In this document: piece after piece, positions 3,640 to 21,911 of the stretch
How the letters are laid out: each line of letters starts with the position of its first letter
Position numbering within the stretch: the first letter of the stretch is position 1
Source of the DNA: Escherichia phage ph0021
Sequence record: OP557970.1
Length of the DNA: 64,000 bases
Direction: 5' to 3' (one strand)
The notes under the pieces: generated by a model
What the model saw: only the letters and a program-made list of their open reading frames with translations
What the model was told of the DNA's origin: nothing
Databases searched by the model: none
Translations under genes and position numbers: made by a program

Positions 3640-4440
3640 ATGGCAGTAGTTGGTGTTCCTGGTTGGATTGGTAGTTCATCCGTAAATGAAACAGGACAAC
3701 GATGGATGAGTCAAGCGGCTGGTCAATTAAGATTGGGTGTTCCTTGCTGGATGAGTCAATTTGCAGGTCGCTCACGAGAAATTATTCATACACTTGGAGC
3801 AGACCATAACTTCAATGGTCAATGGTTCCGAGATAGATGTTTTGAGGCCGGTAGTGCACCTATAGTGTTTAATATTACAGGTGATTTAGTATCATATTCT
3901 AAAGATGTTCCTTTATTCTTCATGTACGGGGATACGCCTAATGAATATGTTGTTCTTAATATTCATGGTGGTGTTCATATGTGGGGTCGTGGTGGTAATG
4001 GTGGATACACTCACTCAGGAGGCGACGGTAACGGTACACAAGGCGGTCATGTTATTCAAAATGATATCGGCGGACGGCTTCGTATTTGGAACTACGGTGT
4101 TATAGCTGCTGGCGGTGGCGGTGGCGGTGGTATTGCATATCGTCCACACTCAGGGGCAAACTGGCAAGATATCGGTGGCGGTGGTGGTCGACCTTTCGGT
4201 GGCGCTGGCGGTGGCGGTTATTCCGGTGGTGCTGCTTCGTATGAAGGTCCGGGTGGTGGTTATGACTATGGTAACGCACACTCCGGCGCTGGTGGTAATG
4301 CTGGTGCTGCTGGTCAGAATGCATGGTCTGACGGCGGTAAAGTTCTTAAAGTTGGTGTTGGTGGTGCGTCTGGTCATGCAGTGTTTGGATCTTCTCCAAC
4401 TTGGGGTGTTGTTGGAACAATTTACGGACCAAGAGTATAA
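3640..4440 (+). CDS. 38: tail fibre adhesin gp38, T2-type (glycine-rich motifs)
   Basis: 266 aa, conserved N-terminus then several poly-Gly tracts (GGGGGGG, GGGGG) separated by variable segments; located between 37 and t. Confidence 0.8.
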
Positions 4441-16379: not shown

Positions 16380-16409
16380 ATTATACCACATCCTTGTGGT
16401 AAAGTAAAC
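16380..16409 (-). promoter_or_regulatory. T4 early-type promoter (GTTTAC / TATAAT)
   Basis: GTTTAC-18nt-TATAAT; spacer holds palindrome CCACAAGGATGTGG; overlaps 3' end of gene 39. Confidence 0.65.
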
Positions 16410-18229
16410 TACTGGCTCATCCATTCTTTACGAAGGTCAGCATTATCTCCCATGAGCATTTCAAAAAGCTCTTTCCAATTCTCAGGAAGTTTAACAACAT
16501 CATATACTGGGTTTTGAATCATCTCACGATATTCAGATTTTTCCAAAGAGCCAAGTCCTTTAATATAACGGATGCTATGTTTAGGTAGAGCATCTTTGGC
16601 ACTCTCATATTCAGCGACTGTATAAAACCATTCTTGTTTTTTACCAATTTGAGCGATGATTACAGGAGTTTTGACAAAACGAATTCGTCCTTGCTCAAAC
16701 AATTCTGGCCAATTACTAAAAAATCCGAGCAAAGAAGGATAAATGCTTCCTAGACCATCATGGTCGGCATCAGTCATAATAGCAATATTATGATAATTTA
16801 AGTTTTCAGCCTTTTCACCGAGAACTAATCCAGTGATTGCGCAAATATCAAATAGTTCTTTGTTTTTAAGCATATCTGCATAAGACATACCCCAACTGTT
16901 GAGAACTTTACCGCGCAATGGATAACCACCGTGAAGTTCTTTATCACGAACATCAATAAGATATCCGATAGCCGAATCACCCTCAGTTAAGAATAGTGTA
17001 GTGTCAGCATCTTTACCGCAAAGATTCGCTTTAATATGTTTATGAACCTTAGCTTTAGAAGCCTTTTTAGCTGCTTTAGTTTCTGCTGCTTTTTCTGCTG
17101 CCAATTTACGGGCCAAGGCAGCTTCAATAATCGGCATTAAAATTGCTTCATTATTTAGAATAGCGCGTGAAATCTTTTTAGCATCAAGTTGAATATGACT
17201 ACGAATTTCGCCAAATGGAGAAGTCAAACGCTCTTTAGTTTGAGAATCAAATCGCATGTTTTTCATATCACGGACAAACATAACGATAGTCAAACATTCT
17301 TTGACACGTGCTTTAGTCACATCAATTTTGAACTTACGTTTGATTTGCGGAATAAGGTCTTCACAAATATCATCCATAACACAGTCAATGTGATGGCCAC
17401 CATTCTTAGTGTGAATGTTATTGACGTATGTTAATTGACGAAAACCATCCGGTGAACGACCAACCGCAATAGAACAATTTTCTTGTTCTTGAACAATAGC
17501 ATGCTCATCATATTGGCGTGCATATTTCTTAAAATTGCCCTGAACCTTTTTACCATTAAAGGTAAATTGAATATCAGGATAAACTACTGCAAGTGTCTGG
17601 AGACGATCTAGTGTAATGTCAAGATAAACTTGAGATAGCTCATTAGTTTCAAATGACATAAAATCAGGAATGAAAGTAACACGTGTTCCTTTCCATTTTC
17701 CAGGAATATCTTCCCATGATTTATTTTCCATACCATTTGAACAACGAACTACAATATTATTTTGACCGTCGCCAGTTTCACCAACAAACATCACAGAAAA
17801 AATGTTTGTCAAACTAGAACCAACACCGTTCATACCGCCAGTGACGCGTTCTTTATCATCACCGAAGTTACCACCTGCTTTTGGAATAGTCCATGCAGCA
17901 ACAGGACCAGGAATTTCTTCACCGGTAGGTGTTTTGACCATCGCTTGTGGAATACCACGACCGTTATCTTCAACTGTTACTTGATTGTTTTTAATAGTAA
18001 CATTAATTTTATTCGCGAATTTAAACTTAGTACGAATACCTTCATCTACTGAGTTATCGATAATTTCATCAATAAGCTTAACAAGACCAGGTACATACTG
18101 AACACTTTCCCATTTACCAAACAGAAAGCGCTCATGCATTTCATTAGCAGAAGAGCCAATGTACATGCCACTACGCTTTTTGATATGTTCAATATCGCTC
18201 AGAATTTTAATTTCATTCTTAATCATCAC
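16409..18229 (-). CDS. 39: DNA topoisomerase II large subunit gp39 (GyrB-like), unsplit form
   Basis: 606 aa continuous ORF with GyrB ATPase/Toprim sequence; no gene 60 interruption. Confidence 0.9.
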   Translation of the reverse strand: MMIKNEIKILSDIEHIKKRSGMYIGSSANEMHERFLFGKWESVQYVPGLVKLIDEIIDNSVDEGIRTKFKFANKINVTIKNNQVTVEDNGRGIPQAMVKTPTGEEIPGPVAAWTIPKAGGNFGDDKERVTGGMNGVGSSLTNIFSVMFVGETGDGQNNIVVRCSNGMENKSWEDIPGKWKGTRVTFIPDFMSFETNELSQVYLDITLDRLQTLAVVYPDIQFTFNGKKVQGNFKKYARQYDEHAIVQEQENCSIAVGRSPDGFRQLTYVNNIHTKNGGHHIDCVMDDICEDLIPQIKRKFKIDVTKARVKECLTIVMFVRDMKNMRFDSQTKERLTSPFGEIRSHIQLDAKKISRAILNNEAILMPIIEAALARKLAAEKAAETKAAKKASKAKVHKHIKANLCGKDADTTLFLTEGDSAIGYLIDVRDKELHGGYPLRGKVLNSWGMSYADMLKNKELFDICAITGLVLGEKAENLNYHNIAIMTDADHDGLGSIYPSLLGFFSNWPELFEQGRIRFVKTPVIIAQIGKKQEWFYTVAEYESAKDALPKHSIRYIKGLGSLEKSEYREMIQNPVYDVVKLPENWKELFEMLMGDNADLRKEWMSQ

Positions 18230-18253
18230 TTATCCTCGTTTGGTTTCGGGAAT

Positions 18254-18283
18254 ATTATACTCCGGTAATCATAAAGCTAAAGG
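18254..18283 (-). promoter_or_regulatory. candidate middle-type promoter upstream of gene 39 (AGCTTTA box, 12 nt, TATAAT)
   Basis: Minus strand TTTAGCTTTATGATTACCGGAGTATAAT directly after terminator hairpin. Confidence 0.4.
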
Positions 18284-18294
18284 CCCGAAGGCCT
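18281..18294 (-). terminator. AGGCC-CGAA-GGCCT hairpin
   Basis: Perfect 5 bp stem immediately after stop of upstream ORF. Confidence 0.5.
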
Positions 18295-18295
18295 T

Positions 18296-18556
18296 TTATT
18301 TAAAACGAATAGTTGAATCCTTAAAGAACAGTCCAGAACATACTGTTCCTTCTACTTTCTGCCCAGTAGGTCCAATAGCACGAAATCCAGTATGTTGGAA
18401 ATCATTTTCAGAGCAACCGAACCAGTTATATCCAGTGATTTCAATATTAGTAAAACCGCTTGAAGACAAAACTTTGGTTGCATTATCAGCATCAGTACAT
18501 CCTACTAAAGACACTACTAATACTAATGCTGCAATAGAACGATTAATATATTTCAT
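18296..18556 (-). CDS. putative lipoprotein (39.1 position)
   Basis: 86 aa, signal peptide with lipobox LVGC. Confidence 0.55.
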   Translation of the reverse strand: MKYINRSIAALVLVVSLVGCTDADNATKVLSSSGFTNIEITGYNWFGCSENDFQHTGFRAIGPTGQKVEGTVCSGLFFKDSTIRFK

Positions 18557-18559
18557 AAT

Positions 18560-18736
18560 TACCCTTTAAGCAAGTCGTAAAATCCGCCATTCACATGCTT
18601 AGGAGCGGAAACTAACCGAATAGCAATCCGATGACAATCAGGACATACATCAGTATCCCTTTCAGAAATTTTCTTGATTTTTTCATATTCATGTCCGCAA
18701 TCTTCGGATTGGCATTTATAATCATACATTGGCATA
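18560..18736 (-). CDS. small zinc-ribbon protein (58 aa)
   Basis: CxxC...CxxC pattern (MPMYDYKCQSEDCGHEYE...CPDCH); read by hand. Confidence 0.45.
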
Positions 18737-18737
18737 A

Positions 18738-19157
18738 TTATTCCTTAAAGTGTGCTTTCAACATCTGATACAAGGACCATGCTTGTTCATTATTTTCAAT
18801 AATAACTTTCATGATCGGGAATTCTGTGAAATCTTCTATTTGTTCTTGCTCTTCCTGCTCTTGTTCTTCAGCTGCCTGATATGGATTTTCCACTTCATTA
18901 AAGAACTCAGCTTCGCTCGTTGAAAGCCAAATAAAATCTTCATCCAAAATATCTTTACCGGAGGATAACGCCAATCTTCCAGTAGATGTCACAATTTTAG
19001 TAGGACGACCAAGATGGTCAATATCTATAACTTTAAAAGGTTCCATACCTAAACGCCGCGCATAGATTCCGTTATCAGTATGGTCTTTAATAAAATTTTC
19101 TTGAGCTTGTTTATTTTTAAATTGATACCATTTATTAACTTCGAATTTAATAGCCAT
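18738..19157 (-). CDS. hypothetical protein (goF position)
   Basis: 139 aa, acidic EQEQEEQEQ tract. Confidence 0.5.
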
Positions 19158-19375
19158 TAATAAATTTCCTTCCAGTAAGTTGTGCCATCTTCAGTAATTT
19201 CACGAAATACACCGTAAATTGGTTGTTTATCCCCAACCTTTTCATACACATAAACCGAAGTCAAGTGAGTAAACTTAGCAGTGTGTTCCTTTTGAACTAC
19301 TACCAAATCTGGATCGAATAATACATCTTCAAATTCATCATTAGTGCAATTCTGAACAATTTTACGTTTCATCAT
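19157..19375 (-). CDS. hypothetical protein (cef position)
   Basis: 72 aa ORF. Confidence 0.5.
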
Positions 19376-19473
19376 AATTTCCTCATTAATTGAACATTGG
19401 AGCGATGCGTTTCAGAAGAGTATCAGCGCACCTTTAACGAATTATCCATTTTATTCTTCAAGTTGTTTTCTGT

Positions 19474-19516
19474 ATCAGTAGTTGATATTGATATAGTACC
19501 ATAATCAACTACTGAT
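19474..19516 (-). promoter_or_regulatory. promoter-like -10/leader element flanked by 13 bp perfect inverted repeat
   Basis: ATCAGTAGTTGAT ... ATCAACTACTGAT arms around TACTAT; no GTTTAC -35. Confidence 0.4.
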
Positions 19517-19546
19517 GTATATAGTTTTATGAAAAAATTTTAAACT

Positions 19547-20038
19547 TTATGCATAGCGAGCTTTGCTGTAGTGTTTAATCCAACTTTCAGGAATGACTTT
19601 GTATGTTCCTAAAAATACCGCGTTGTATAACTTAACGCCATCTTCTACCCATTGATCAGTAATGTATGCACACATAGCGCGAGTACGCTGAGGAAGTGGT
19701 TGTCCACCTTCGGTAAATTCAAACTCATAAGGAGCAATGAACTTGATAGCTTGACCAAGTTTCCACTTAAAGTCTACACCTACATGCGAAGTATCAATCG
19801 TTTCAATTCCTTTAGCAGGAACAGCTTTCAAAAACGCAGGCTCAAGAAATTTCCATCGAACATAACCAAACTGGGGCTTAGACATTCCATCTTTAGCAAT
19901 GATACGTACTTTTACTTCAGAATCTTCATCTTTAACACCGTGTTTAAGCTGAATGCTTACAACTTCGACCAATTTTCCTGCTGCTTTAGAACGGGATTTA
20001 TCAGATACACGAGCAATTTCACCGATATTAATATTCAT
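19547..20038 (-). CDS. MotB-like protein
   Basis: 163 aa at T4 motB position; paralog of adjacent 182 aa ORF. Confidence 0.5.
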   Translation of the reverse strand: MNINIGEIARVSDKSRSKAAGKLVEVVSIQLKHGVKDEDSEVKVRIIAKDGMSKPQFGYVRWKFLEPAFLKAVPAKGIETIDTSHVGVDFKWKLGQAIKFIAPYEFEFTEGGQPLPQRTRAMCAYITDQWVEDGVKLYNAVFLGTYKVIPESWIKHYSKARYA

Positions 20039-20082
20039 AATTATCTCTCACTTGTTAAAAAGATTTTATACTCCACAGGACC

Positions 20083-20112
20083 ATTATACTCTGGTCCCAA
20101 GAGTTTGTAAAC
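20083..20112 (-). promoter_or_regulatory. T4 early-type promoter (GTTTAC / TATAAT)
   Basis: GTTTAC-18nt-TATAAT upstream of motB-like gene. Confidence 0.65.
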
Positions 20113-20660
20113 TAGCTTACACGAACATTAATCACTGCGCTACGAGGAACTACAGAGTATTCTCCAGCATGAACTACGTTCAGAAGTTCAACACCATCTT
20201 CAATCCACTGGTCTGTTACCCAACCACAGATAGGATTATCAAAAGGACGACGGATAGACACAGCAGCACACAACAAGTCTGTAGGGTCTTGTTCTTCAAC
20301 TTCTTGGAACAGGATGAACTCATCTTCATAAACCAGGTTTTTCTTTATTTTGTTATTATCTAACCGGCGACCGTGGATGACGTAAGATTTGTCAAACCAC
20401 TCACTTTTGGCAAATTCTTCAACAATAAATTCGCCTTCGCCAAAAACATCAGTCAGAGTTTTATGACCAGAAATCAAGGCATTAGTTTTAATTTTAGGTT
20501 CAACCAGTTTGTAGGTTTTGCCGATTTCAATAGCGGTAGTCATAGTAGTTTCCTTAATTTCCAGTGGTTTAACAGGGCATACATAAGTGCTTACAACATC
20601 AAAATCAATCAGTTTAGCTACTGGATTTGGTGTGTATTCAGGATTATAATTAAATTTCAT
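20112..20660 (-). CDS. hypothetical protein, paralog of MotB-like protein
   Basis: 182 aa; C-terminal VTDQWIEDGVELLNVVHAGEYSVVP aligns with ITDQWVEDGVKLYNAVFLGTYKVIP in neighbour. Confidence 0.55.
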   Translation of the reverse strand: MKFNYNPEYTPNPVAKLIDFDVVSTYVCPVKPLEIKETTMTTAIEIGKTYKLVEPKIKTNALISGHKTLTDVFGEGEFIVEEFAKSEWFDKSYVIHGRRLDNNKIKKNLVYEDEFILFQEVEEQDPTDLLCAAVSIRRPFDNPICGWVTDQWIEDGVELLNVVHAGEYSVVPRSAVINVRVS

Positions 20661-20662
20661 AA

Positions 20663-21163
20663 TTATCTCATTTCAATAAAATCTACGAGTTCAGCATGGG
20701 ATTTACGGAACATTACTTGATGTCCACCAATGATAACTTCATCTTCAGGAACTTCATATACAGCGAGATAAAATCCTTTAGAAGCTAATTCTTCACGCTC
20801 TTCTCGTGTGAACCATCTCATCATATCATATTCACTAGCGAAAGCAAAATGATAAAGACCTATAAACCATCCGGGAATATGATATTCTACTCCAACATAA
20901 TCTTTCTTGAACTTAGTATTAATTACTATATTAGCGTTTTTAACTAATAGTTTATCTTCGTGCGGTAAAGGAATTCTTTTATTATTATCGCTATGATGCA
21001 TAAAATTAGGTCTGTCATAACCTACGTGTAATAGCCACTCTTCGCTCCATGAATCTATTATACTCCTGTACGGCGTTATTTGAACACAAAGATTTCGACG
21101 TATTGTTATAGCATCTTCATAATCAAGAATACTAAACGATGATTCAACACGATAAATTTTCAT
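20663..21163 (-). CDS. hypothetical protein
   Basis: 166 aa ORF. Confidence 0.55.
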   Translation of the reverse strand: MKIYRVESSFSILDYEDAITIRRNLCVQITPYRSIIDSWSEEWLLHVGYDRPNFMHHSDNNKRIPLPHEDKLLVKNANIVINTKFKKDYVGVEYHIPGWFIGLYHFAFASEYDMMRWFTREEREELASKGFYLAVYEVPEDEVIIGGHQVMFRKSHAELVDFIEMR

Positions 21164-21191
21164 TTTATTATCCTCGGTTAGCTATGGTGTT

Positions 21192-21221
21192 ATAATACCA
21201 TAACTAACCGAGGAAGTAAAC
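21192..21221 (-). promoter_or_regulatory. T4 early-type promoter (GTTTAC / TATTAT) inside long palindrome
   Basis: GTTTAC-18nt-TATTAT; flanked by inverted repeat TCCTCGGTTAG/CTAACCGAGGA. Confidence 0.6.
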
Positions 21222-21227
21222 AACTTT

Positions 21228-21911
21228 TTATCGTTTAGTTGGAAGAGATAGAGGATCGCATTCTTCCTCTGATGGAGCGTCTTCAAGACCCATAGCATAC
21301 CGCAAAGCATACTTCATCATCAGGATGTCTTTCGCACAGTCATGAATGGAATCATGTGCAACAAATCCATCCAAGGTTCCTTTTGGAAGAGGACATGTGG
21401 TCATATCACGAACGAGTAGAAGTGCTTCAATTCTGGTACGAATATCACGCTGATTCCAGAATTTACATGGTTCTAACTTAAATGTGTCAAGTTCATTCTC
21501 AGAAACGCCATTAAAACGTTGAATATCGCGAATGAGATCGACTAAAATTGGAAAATCAAACGACATTCCACGGCACCAGCCTTGAGATTTCCAAGGATCG
21601 ATATTATGCGCATTGATGTAATCATTAAATTTTGCAATACCGTCAATAGTGCTTACATCTTCATCGGATGGTGCAATATTTTTTCTAGCTTCAGGGGATT
21701 GATTCTTCCACCATTCGATAGTGCTTTTAGTAAAAAGACGATGTCCTTTTTGGCTTTTTAAATCAAATTTGATTTTAATGCCGCGTGAAACTAATTCATC
21801 AAATGTTTCAACTACTTCTGGGTTAGGGTCAAAAGCAATTACAGCTAAATCAATAACAGCTGCTTTTTCACCGCTTCCCATTGTTTCAAAATCTATAATA
21901 AAATCAAACAT
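21228..21911 (-). CDS. dexA: exonuclease A DexA
   Basis: 227 aa, DEDD exonuclease-like N-terminus (FDFETMG), matches T4 DexA length and order. Confidence 0.85.
   Translation of the reverse strand: MFDFIIDFETMGSGEKAAVIDLAVIAFDPNPEVVETFDELVSRGIKIKFDLKSQKGHRLFTKSTIEWWKNQSPEARKNIAPSDEDVSTIDGIAKFNDYINAHNIDPWKSQGWCRGMSFDFPILVDLIRDIQRFNGVSENELDTFKLEPCKFWNQRDIRTRIEALLLVRDMTTCPLPKGTLDGFVAHDSIHDCAKDILMMKYALRYAMGLEDAPSEEECDPLSLPTKR

What the first reader, a model, noticed from the sequence alone, without database searches (positions are those of the whole stretch)
19547..20660. Tandem paralogs at the motB locus
The 163 aa and 182 aa ORFs lie back to back, each with its own early promoter, and share a conserved C-terminal block (AYITDQWVEDGVKLYNAVFLGTYKVIPESW versus GWVTDQWIEDGVELLNVVHAGEYSVVPRSA). 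The N-terminal regions have diverged. This looks like a duplication followed by divergence, typical of proteins tracking variable host targets.
Basis: seen in the sequence. Interest (0 to 1): 0.4.

Follow-up and report, generated by a model that had tools for sequence, protein, structure and literature searches.

The report
Known motB / motB.1 phage paralog pair
The two neighbouring genes are the motB and motB.1 early genes of a T4-like phage. They do share a conserved C-terminal domain, but this relationship was published in 2021, so the finding is real and ordinary.

Summary
ORFs 19547-20038(-) (163 aa) and 20112-20660(-) (182 aa) share a C-terminal block: 17/31 identical, BLASTP E 2e-11, profile-profile E 1.4e-13, and a Pfam motB hit above its cut-off. 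The window is a Tequatrovirus. The 163-aa protein is MotB, 87% identical to T4 MotB. The 182-aa protein sits in the motB.1 position and belongs to the MotB.1 family.

The shared C-terminal domain, the different N-terminal domains and a likely duplication were reported by Patterson-West et al. 2021 (PMC7827196). Kim et al. 2025 (PMC12152347) assigned the MotB.1 N-terminal domain to an LSm/SH3-like family with GoF and Frd.2.

- The N-termini are different barrel families, which points to module replacement rather than gradual divergence.
- Klebsiella T4-like phages carry a single gene with a MotB-type N-terminus and a MotB.1-type C-terminus.
- MotB is basic (pI 9.3) and the 182-aa paralog is acidic (pI 4.9).
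- All domains are under purifying selection.
- Only motB has its own early promoter. The 182-aa gene follows motB.2.

Side finding: the 119-aa T4 reference MotB.1 results from one extra G that is absent from resequenced T4 genomes. The real protein is 143 aa.

The parts
19547..20038 (-). motB coding sequence (163 aa + stop), ortholog of T4 MotB
   Evidence: Pfam PF17613 full-length match, E 5e-94. 87% identical to T4 MotB. Same position as T4 motB, between cef and motB.1.
19838..20038 (-). MotB N-terminal KOW/Tudor-like small beta-barrel (residues 1-67)
19550..19777 (-). MotB C-terminal beta-rich domain (residues 88-163), including a variable hairpin (about residues 96-125)
   Evidence: AF2 strands 97-108, 117-132, 135-142, 145-150 and 154-157, pLDDT 80-93. 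The hairpin region has pN about 0.4 against pS about 0.5. Family alignment.
19583..19675 (-). Shared block in MotB (residues 122-152, MCAYITDQWVEDGVKLYNAVFLGTYKVIPES)
   Evidence: BLASTP and hhalign. pN 0.06-0.09 against pS about 0.6.
20083..20112 (-). T4-early-type promoter of motB (GTTTAC-N18-TATAAT). Its -35 hexamer overlaps the stop codon of the 182-aa ORF.
   Evidence: 11/12 match to the sigma-70 consensus. One of 6 GTTTAC-N16-18-TAYAAT sites in the window, against 0.16 expected. Identical in T4. Annotated as a promoter in JB75 and NBG2.
20112..20660 (-). motB.1-type coding sequence (182 aa + stop)
   Evidence: phrog_2333 full-length match, E 7e-89. Same position as T4 motB.1. 232 homologs, all carrying PF17613. 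hhalign to the T4-type MotB.1 family: E 9e-40 over 110 columns.
20544..20660 (-). N-terminal leader of the 182-aa protein (residues 1-39), containing the motif LIDFDVVSTYVCPVKPL (residues 17-33)
   Evidence: Conserved in the family. dN/dS 0.24. The same motif occurs at internal positions in other family members. AF2 gives low confidence here.
20292..20543 (-). SH3/LSm-like barrel of the 182-aa protein (residues 40-123)
20115..20291 (-). C-terminal MotB-type domain of the 182-aa protein (residues 124-182, DPTDLLC...GWVTDQWIEDGVELLNVVHAGEYSVVPRSAV). The core block is residues 144-174, window 20139-20231.
   Evidence: Nearly invariant in the family. Acidic, pI 4.45. The AF2 model is low confidence here.
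20663..21163 (-). motB.2 (166 aa). Its stop lies 2 nt before the start of the 182-aa ORF, so the two are probably in one transcription unit.
   Evidence: ORF list. T4 gene order. phrog_1106.
21192..21221 (-). T4-early-type promoter upstream of motB.2 (GTTTAC ... TATTAT), the probable promoter for motB.2 and the 182-aa gene
   Evidence: Annotated as a T4 early promoter with 1 mismatch in phage ASO78A.

Best explanation
This is the motB-motB.1 gene pair of a T4-like (Tequatrovirus) phage. The two early genes share one small beta-rich C-terminal domain and carry different N-terminal small-barrel domains.

Most likely history (inferred). An ancestral gene had a KOW-like barrel, a short linker motif and the C-terminal domain. 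It is still single-copy in Klebsiella T4-like phages. It duplicated in tandem long ago. The downstream copy, MotB, kept the KOW barrel, is basic, and has a variable hairpin in its C-terminal domain. The upstream copy, MotB.1, kept the ancestral-looking C-terminal sequence, but its N-terminal barrel was replaced by an LSm/FeoA-like barrel of the GoF/Frd.2/MotB.1 family. It is acidic.

Function of MotB. This is shown for T4 MotB and transferred here by 87% identity. It is a non-specific DNA-binding early protein, toxic to E. coli. It co-purifies with H-NS and StpA, changes the H-NS footprint on DNA, de-represses H-NS-regulated genes and doubles burst size.

Function of the 182-aa protein (inference only). 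It is an early protein co-transcribed with motB.2. The shared block is acidic in both paralogs, so it probably serves as a common structural or partner-binding module rather than as the DNA-contact surface. The N-terminal barrel would supply a different specificity, for RNA or protein.
For: - Identity and gene order.
- Shared domain. Bridging sequences extend the homology to the whole C-terminal domain, from DPTDLL to the end.
- Single-copy genes with a KOW barrel and a MotB.1-like C-terminus in Klebsiella phages.
- Old duplication: 58% nucleotide identity in the block, longest identical run 8 nt.
- Purifying selection throughout.
- Charge contrast, pI 9.3 versus 4.9.
- Narrow family: 16 clusters among 1.84 billion representative proteins.
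- Literature: PMC6070864 (DNA binding, toxicity, burst size, H-NS/StpA), PMC7827196 (shared C-terminal domain, duplication, KOW and OB prediction), PMC12152347 (LSm-like N-terminal domain of MotB.1).
Against: - No experiment exists for any MotB.1-type protein with a complete C-terminal domain. The T4 deletion of motB.1 has no phenotype.
- AF2 gives pLDDT below 35 for the C-terminal domain of the 182-aa protein. Its fold is therefore inferred from MotB only.
- The direction of evolution rests on a few bridging sequences, not on a rooted phylogeny. The alternatives are N-terminus replacement in MotB.1 or a recombinant origin of the Klebsiella-phage genes.
- Both N-termini are SH3-like barrels, so very remote homology cannot be excluded.
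- Which MotB domain binds DNA is not known.
Confidence: 0.85

Rival explanations
1. Whole-gene tandem duplication followed by in-place sequence divergence of the N-terminal half until similarity was lost. No domain replacement is involved.
For: Both N-terminal domains are small SH3-like beta-barrels of similar size, followed by a linker and the same C-terminal domain. Both models hit some of the same PDB barrels (6hq9_B, 2mi6_A, 5ohq_A, 6hum_S). The tandem arrangement is conserved.
Against: Profile-profile comparison finds nothing outside 36 C-terminal columns. The MotB.1 barrel has sequence and structure links to GoF/Frd.2-type barrels instead (phrog_622 E 3e-4; PMC12152347). MotB.1-family proteins visibly gain, lose and duplicate barrels and move a linker motif. 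Bridging proteins have an unmistakable MotB-type N-terminus with a MotB.1-type C-terminus.
Confidence: 0.2
2. There was no gene duplication. A mobile C-terminal module was acquired independently by two unrelated neighbouring genes through domain shuffling.
For: The family is strongly modular, with 1-2 barrels, extra N-terminal modules and a movable linker motif. Similarity is confined to the C-terminal part.
Against: The two genes are always adjacent and in the same orientation. Single-copy lineages have one gene combining features of both. The linker motif plus C-terminal domain are shared as a unit.
Confidence: 0.1
3. Functional rival. The acidic 182-aa MotB.1-type protein is not a nucleic-acid binder. 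It modulates MotB through a heteromer formed by the shared block, tempering MotB toxicity or DNA binding, or it competes for the same host partner such as H-NS or StpA.
For: Opposite net charges, +5.8 versus -9.2 at pH 7. The shared block is the most conserved part of both proteins. MotB is toxic. The gene lies immediately upstream, and T4 MotB.1 self-associates on gels.
Against: There are no interaction data. The T4 motB.1 deletion has no burst-size phenotype. Klebsiella phages manage with one gene.
Confidence: 0.15
4. The similarity is a chance or compositional match of a short peptide.
For: Only about 31-36 residues align directly between the two proteins.
Against: E 2e-11 pairwise. Pfam hit above its curated cut-off. 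hhalign E 1.4e-13. Intermediate sequences connect the two forms over the whole C-terminal domain. The block is under strong purifying selection in both genes.
Confidence: 0.01

Closest known systems
T4 MotB (Pfam PF17613; Patterson-West et al. 2018, PMC6070864; 2021, PMC7827196)
   Same: The 163-aa protein is 87% identical over its full length. It has the same position, the same early promoter, the same predicted two-domain architecture and a basic pI.
   Different: The only notable difference is a 1-residue indel and substitutions in the variable hairpin, residues about 103-119.
[quoted passage not shown] 2021)
   Same: The 182-aa protein has the same position upstream of motB and a near-identical C-terminal domain (DPTDLLC...GWVTDQWIEDGVELLNVVH...VVPRSAV). 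Its barrel is homologous (hhalign E 9e-40) and it is acidic. The consensus line of the published Figure S1 contains this protein's N-terminal sequence.
   Different: It carries a 39-residue N-terminal leader with the IDFDVxSxYVxP motif that T4 MotB.1 lacks. Its barrel is so diverged that BLASTP aligns only residues 103-153.
GoF / Frd.2 / MotB.1 LSm-like fold family (Kim et al. 2025, PMC12152347)
   Same: The predicted N-terminal barrel has the same strand-helix-strand topology. FeoA-type SH3 barrels are among its best PDB matches, as reported for that family. There is a weak profile link to the GoF-type phrog_622.
   Different: There is no significant pairwise similarity to the window's own GoF (E 3.8). 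The structural scores are weak (Z no higher than 4.1). GoF and Frd.2 lack the MotB-type C-terminal domain.

Membership tests
MotB (PF17613), for the 163-aa ORF | Full-length match to the family profile above the curated cut-off | tested here: met
   312.9 bits against 25, residues 1-163 on profile positions 1-162. phrog_1671 E 3e-75.
MotB (PF17613), for the 163-aa ORF | N-terminal KOW-like barrel with the RVSxxSRSKAAG motif, plus a beta-rich C-terminal domain | tested here: met
MotB (PF17613), for the 163-aa ORF | Non-specific DNA binding, interplay with H-NS/StpA, toxicity | not testable with these tools
   Only consistent indicators are available: pI 9.3 and 87% identity to the characterised T4 protein.
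MotB (PF17613), for the 182-aa ORF | Full-length match including the KOW N-terminal domain | tested here: not met
   The Pfam hit covers only profile positions 117-153 of 162. hhalign aligns 36 columns only. The protein is acidic, pI 4.9. It shares a domain with MotB but is not a MotB ortholog.
MotB.1 group, for the 182-aa ORF | Gene immediately upstream of motB, in the same orientation | tested here: met
   The same arrangement is seen in 17 other loci.
MotB.1 group, for the 182-aa ORF | MotB.1-type C-terminal sequence (DPTDLLC, GWVTDQWIEDGVELLNVVH, VVPRS) | tested here: met
MotB.1 group, for the 182-aa ORF | N-terminal barrel homologous to that of T4 MotB.1 | tested here: met
   The hhalign alignment starts at residue 69 of the 182-aa protein and residue 32 of T4 MotB.1, E 9e-40 overall. 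Intermediates P0256, P0260 and P0266 align through the barrel. BFVD hit to P39415, E 1.8e-9.
LSm-like fold family (GoF/Frd.2/MotB.1) | Bent five-stranded antiparallel sheet (SH3/LSm topology) | tested here: inconclusive
LSm-like fold family (GoF/Frd.2/MotB.1) | Detectable sequence relationship to GoF or Frd.2 | tested here: inconclusive
   phrog_622 E 3e-4. BLASTP to the window's GoF gives E 3.8. The BFVD hit to GoF of phage VR7 has E 0.06.
LSm-like fold family (GoF/Frd.2/MotB.1) | RNA binding or an effect on RNA stability | not testable with these tools
   In the literature this was shown only for the GoF(D25Y) mutant. MotB.1 had no effect.

The most novel reading that the evidence does not exclude
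The acidic MotB.1-type protein and the basic, toxic MotB may form a functional pair through their shared C-terminal block. In this reading MotB.1 acts as a built-in modulator or decoy. It would control how much MotB, or host H-NS/StpA, engages DNA early in infection. Earlier negative results for MotB.1 would then be partly explained, because the plasmid constructs encoded the 119-aa reference-genome form, which lacks most of that block.
Probability: 0.1. Interest if true: 0.5.

Novelty: already known. Interest (0 to 1): 0.15.

Why it matters
The paralogy itself adds nothing new. It is in the literature, in Pfam and in many GenBank annotations ('MotB domain-containing protein').

Three by-products could help people working on T4 early genes:
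1. The reference-genome MotB.1 (119 aa) is very probably a one-base artefact. The real protein (143 aa) has a complete MotB-type C-terminal domain. Published plasmid experiments apparently used the truncated form.
2. The two paralogs have opposite charge, and the shared block is acidic. This argues against the block being the DNA-binding surface and suggests a protein-protein role.
3. Single-copy genes in Klebsiella T4-like phages give an outgroup for reconstructing how the pair arose.

Tried and rejected
- Chance match: rejected.
- Recent duplication or gene conversion: rejected. The block is 58% identical at the nucleotide level, with third positions near random.
- Diversifying selection on the N-termini: not seen. 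dN/dS is 0.2-0.3.
- Low synonymous divergence in the MotB core block: this appeared in a 9-sequence set and vanished with 17 sequences (pS about 0.6). I treat it as a small-sample artefact.
- Internal start at Met40 of the 182-aa ORF, suggested by the T4 alignment and a weak promoter-like site at 20643-20671: rejected. The leader is conserved as protein, under purifying selection, and contains a motif found inside other family members.
- Solved structures by sequence: none for either family.
- Rfam on 18200-21300: nothing credible.
- AF2 of the 182-aa protein did not give a usable C-terminal domain (pLDDT below 35), so the two C-terminal folds could not be compared directly.
- Programmed frameshifting as an explanation for the extra G in T4 motB.1: considered and set aside, because resequenced T4 genomes lack the base.

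Full report
**What is there.** The window is a Tequatrovirus (T4-like) genome segment. Region 19300-21300 is 100% identical to GenBank OR584013 and 98-99% identical to many Escherichia, Shigella and Yersinia T4-like phages. 619 phage records match and 347 cover at least 80% of the query. On the minus strand the gene order is gene 39, small ORFs, goF, cef, a 163-aa ORF, a 182-aa ORF, a 166-aa ORF, then dexA. This is the T4 order cef-motB-motB.1-motB.2-dexA. The 163-aa ORF (19547-20038) is MotB: Pfam PF17613 over its full length at E 5e-94, and 87% identical to T4 MotB. The 182-aa ORF (20112-20660) occupies the motB.1 slot and matches phrog_2333 over its full length at E 7e-89.

**Check of the observation.** Both quoted peptides are present. 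BLASTP of the two proteins aligns MotB 122-152 with residues 144-174 of the 182-aa protein: 17/31 identical, 23/31 positive, no gaps, E 2e-11. Pfam motB hits the 182-aa protein at 36.8 bits against a cut-off of 25, covering only profile positions 117-153. The MotB PHROG profile reaches residues 121-178 at E 4.6e-16. Profile-profile comparison of a 45-sequence MotB alignment and a 37-sequence alignment of the 182-aa family gives one hit of 36 columns, probability 98%, E 1.4e-13. The similarity is therefore real and confined to the C-terminal part.

The promoter statement is only half right. motB is preceded by a textbook T4-early-type promoter, GTTTAC-N18-TATAAT at 20083-20112. It is one of six such sites in the window against 0.16 expected. 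The 182-aa ORF starts 2 nt after the motB.2 stop. The next early-type promoter lies upstream of motB.2 at about 21192-21221. Annotators of near-identical phages marked promoters at exactly these two places.

**Already known.** Patterson-West et al. 2021 (PMC7827196) reported that T4 MotB and MotB.1 share a conserved C-terminal domain but have different N-terminal domains. They suggested that one gene arose by duplication of the other and noted that about 40 phages carry both. They also described MotB.1-group proteins in several categories with distinct N-termini. The consensus line of their Figure S1 contains the N-terminal sequence of the 182-aa protein studied here. Kim et al. 2025 (PMC12152347) assigned the MotB.1 N-terminal domain to an LSm/SH3-like barrel family together with GoF and Frd.2. 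Several GenBank records already call the 182-aa homolog 'transcription regulator MotB domain-containing protein'. Only these two papers in the searchable library mention MotB.1.

For the 182-aa protein only residues 42-123 are modelled with moderate confidence (pLDDT about 75), as a strand-helix-strand barrel. The leader (1-41) and the C-terminal domain (124-182) are below 35. The barrel's best PDB matches are weak, Z no higher than 4.1, to EF-P domain I, FeoA and Tudor. In BFVD it matches T4 MotB.1 at E 1.8e-9 and, marginally, a GoF. No solved structure exists for either family by sequence search.

**How the two genes are related.** The family is very narrow. An exhaustive phmmer search of 1.84 billion representative proteins finds 16 clusters. 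Among them are bridging proteins (P0274-P0281). They have a MotB-type KOW N-terminus (xRVYVSxxSxSKVAGE), a short motif (V/I)D(T/F)DVxSMYxTP, and then a MotB.1-type C-terminus (DPTDLLC...GWVTDQWIEDGVELLNVV). Some also have a hairpin insertion like that of MotB. Aligning these shows that homology covers the whole C-terminal domain, from DPTDLL onward in the 182-aa protein and from about residue 80 in MotB. It is not limited to the 31-residue block.

These bridging genes come from Klebsiella T4-like phages and are single-copy there. In Tequatrovirus and relatives, a MotB.1-type gene always sits directly upstream of motB. RB69-like loci have three tandem members.

The window-type and T4-type MotB.1 barrels are homologous: hhalign gives 110 columns at E 9e-40, and intermediates exist. 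Neither barrel aligns to the MotB KOW barrel. MotB.1-family proteins also show the following module variation:
- two tandem barrels in the 250-251-aa forms;
- an extra N-terminal module of about 70 residues in the 247-251-aa forms;
- a linker motif that sits N-terminally in the window protein and internally in others.

The block is 58% identical at the DNA level, with 12/31 identical third positions, so the duplication is old. My reading, which is an inference, is an ancient tandem duplication of a gene with a KOW barrel, the linker motif and the C-terminal domain. The N-terminal barrel in the MotB.1 copy was then replaced, and the C-terminal domain diverged in the MotB copy.

**Selection and charge.** Pairwise dN/dS is 0.2-0.3 in every domain of both genes. 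In a 17-sequence MotB set the block has pN 0.06-0.09 against pS about 0.6. Only the hairpin at residues about 96-125 approaches neutrality, with pN about 0.4. There is thus no sign that the N-termini are racing against variable targets by point substitution.

MotB is basic (pI 9.3, +5.8 at pH 7). The 182-aa protein is acidic (pI 4.9, -9.2), as is T4 MotB.1 (pI 4.6). The shared block is acidic in both, pI about 4.2-4.3.

**Function.** For MotB, the experimentally shown properties of T4 MotB can be transferred: tight non-specific DNA binding, toxicity in E. coli, co-purification with H-NS and StpA, an altered H-NS footprint, de-repression of H-NS-regulated genes, and a twofold burst-size benefit.

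For the 182-aa protein nothing has been shown. The T4 motB.1 deletion has no phenotype and plasmid-borne MotB.1 had no effect in an RNA reporter assay. Given the charge data, I infer that the shared C-terminal block is a common structural or partner-binding module rather than the DNA-contact surface. I also infer that the acidic paralog is not a MotB-like DNA coater. Whether it binds RNA through its barrel, binds MotB, or binds the same host partner remains open.

**Side finding.** In the T4 reference genome (AF158101.6 = NC_000866.4), motB.1 is annotated as 119 aa. Aligning it with the window shows one extra G (TGGATTGGAAGATGG against TGGATTGAAGATGG) inside the conserved block. Downstream of it, the remaining C-terminal sequence EDGVELLNVVHAGEYSVVPRSAVVAILN is intact in another frame. 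Three independently resequenced T4 genomes lack the G (MT984581, T4T HM137666 and KJ477684) and encode a 143-aa MotB.1 with a complete C-terminal domain. All 13 other T4, RB55 and RB59 records match over 520 nt rather than 521 nt. The 143-aa protein was seen on 256 contigs and the 119-aa form on 2. The 2025 study quotes 13.8 kDa for MotB.1 and built its plasmids by gene synthesis from NC_000866.4. It therefore apparently tested the truncated form.

**Verdict.** The finding is real, correctly located and statistically solid. Interest is low. The small added value lies in the reference-sequence error, the charge contrast and the single-copy outgroup.

Noticed in passing
L001 (T4 NC_000866.4) 3792-4151, compared with window 20139-20231 and loci L003-L005: The 119-aa MotB.1 of the T4 reference genome results from one extra G (TGGATTGGAAGATGG) inside the conserved block. 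Three resequenced T4 genomes lack it and encode a 143-aa protein with a complete MotB-type C-terminus. The 143-aa form is on 256 contigs and the 119-aa form on 2. Published plasmid work quoting 13.8 kDa apparently used the truncated form.
   Followed up: yes
window 20562-20609 (-), residues 18-33 of the 182-aa protein; also P0241, P0250, P0253, P0275, P0279-P0281: A short motif (I/V)D(F/M/T)D(V/I)xS(T/M)Y(V/G/L)xP(V/I)KPL occupies different positions in different family members. It is an N-terminal leader here. Elsewhere it lies between the barrel and the C-terminal domain, or between the KOW barrel and the C-terminal domain. Its role is unknown.
   Followed up: partly
loci L017-L019 (250-251 aa), L009-L010 (249-251 aa), L007/L008/L020, L023-L026: The motB.1 slot is architecturally variable between phages. 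Some forms have two tandem barrels and others an extra N-terminal module of about 70 residues. RB69-like phages have three tandem MotB-family genes. Klebsiella T4-like phages have a single gene with a KOW barrel and a MotB.1-type C-terminus.
   Followed up: partly
window 19673-19753 (-), MotB residues about 96-125: The hairpin insert in the MotB C-terminal domain is the only part of either gene where non-synonymous divergence (pN about 0.4) approaches synonymous divergence (pS about 0.5). It is absent from MotB.1-type proteins.
   Followed up: partly
window 20078-20098 and 21172-21213 (-): Inverted repeats enclose the -10 hexamers of the motB promoter (GGGACCAGAGTATAATGGTCC) and the motB.2 promoter (CCTCGGTTAGTTATGGTATTATAACACCATAGCTAACCGAGG). 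Some annotators call these hairpins terminators. Sub-threshold Rfam microRNA hits at 21150-21233 probably reflect the second hairpin.
   Followed up: no
window 19474-19516: An imperfect inverted repeat with 20-nt arms (85% complementary, 3-nt loop) lies in the 170-nt motB-cef spacer. It is not followed by a T-run on the transcribed strand. A related phage annotates a terminator there.
   Followed up: no
window 16409-18229 (-): Gene 39 (topoisomerase II large subunit) is a single 606-aa ORF. It is not split into genes 39 and 60 as in T4.
   Followed up: no
window 19300-21300: The only 100% identical record is named 'Pseudomonas phage PsgM02F' (OR584013). The sequence is otherwise a typical Escherichia/Shigella Tequatrovirus, 98-99% identical to many E. 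coli phages, so the host label may deserve a second look.
   Followed up: no
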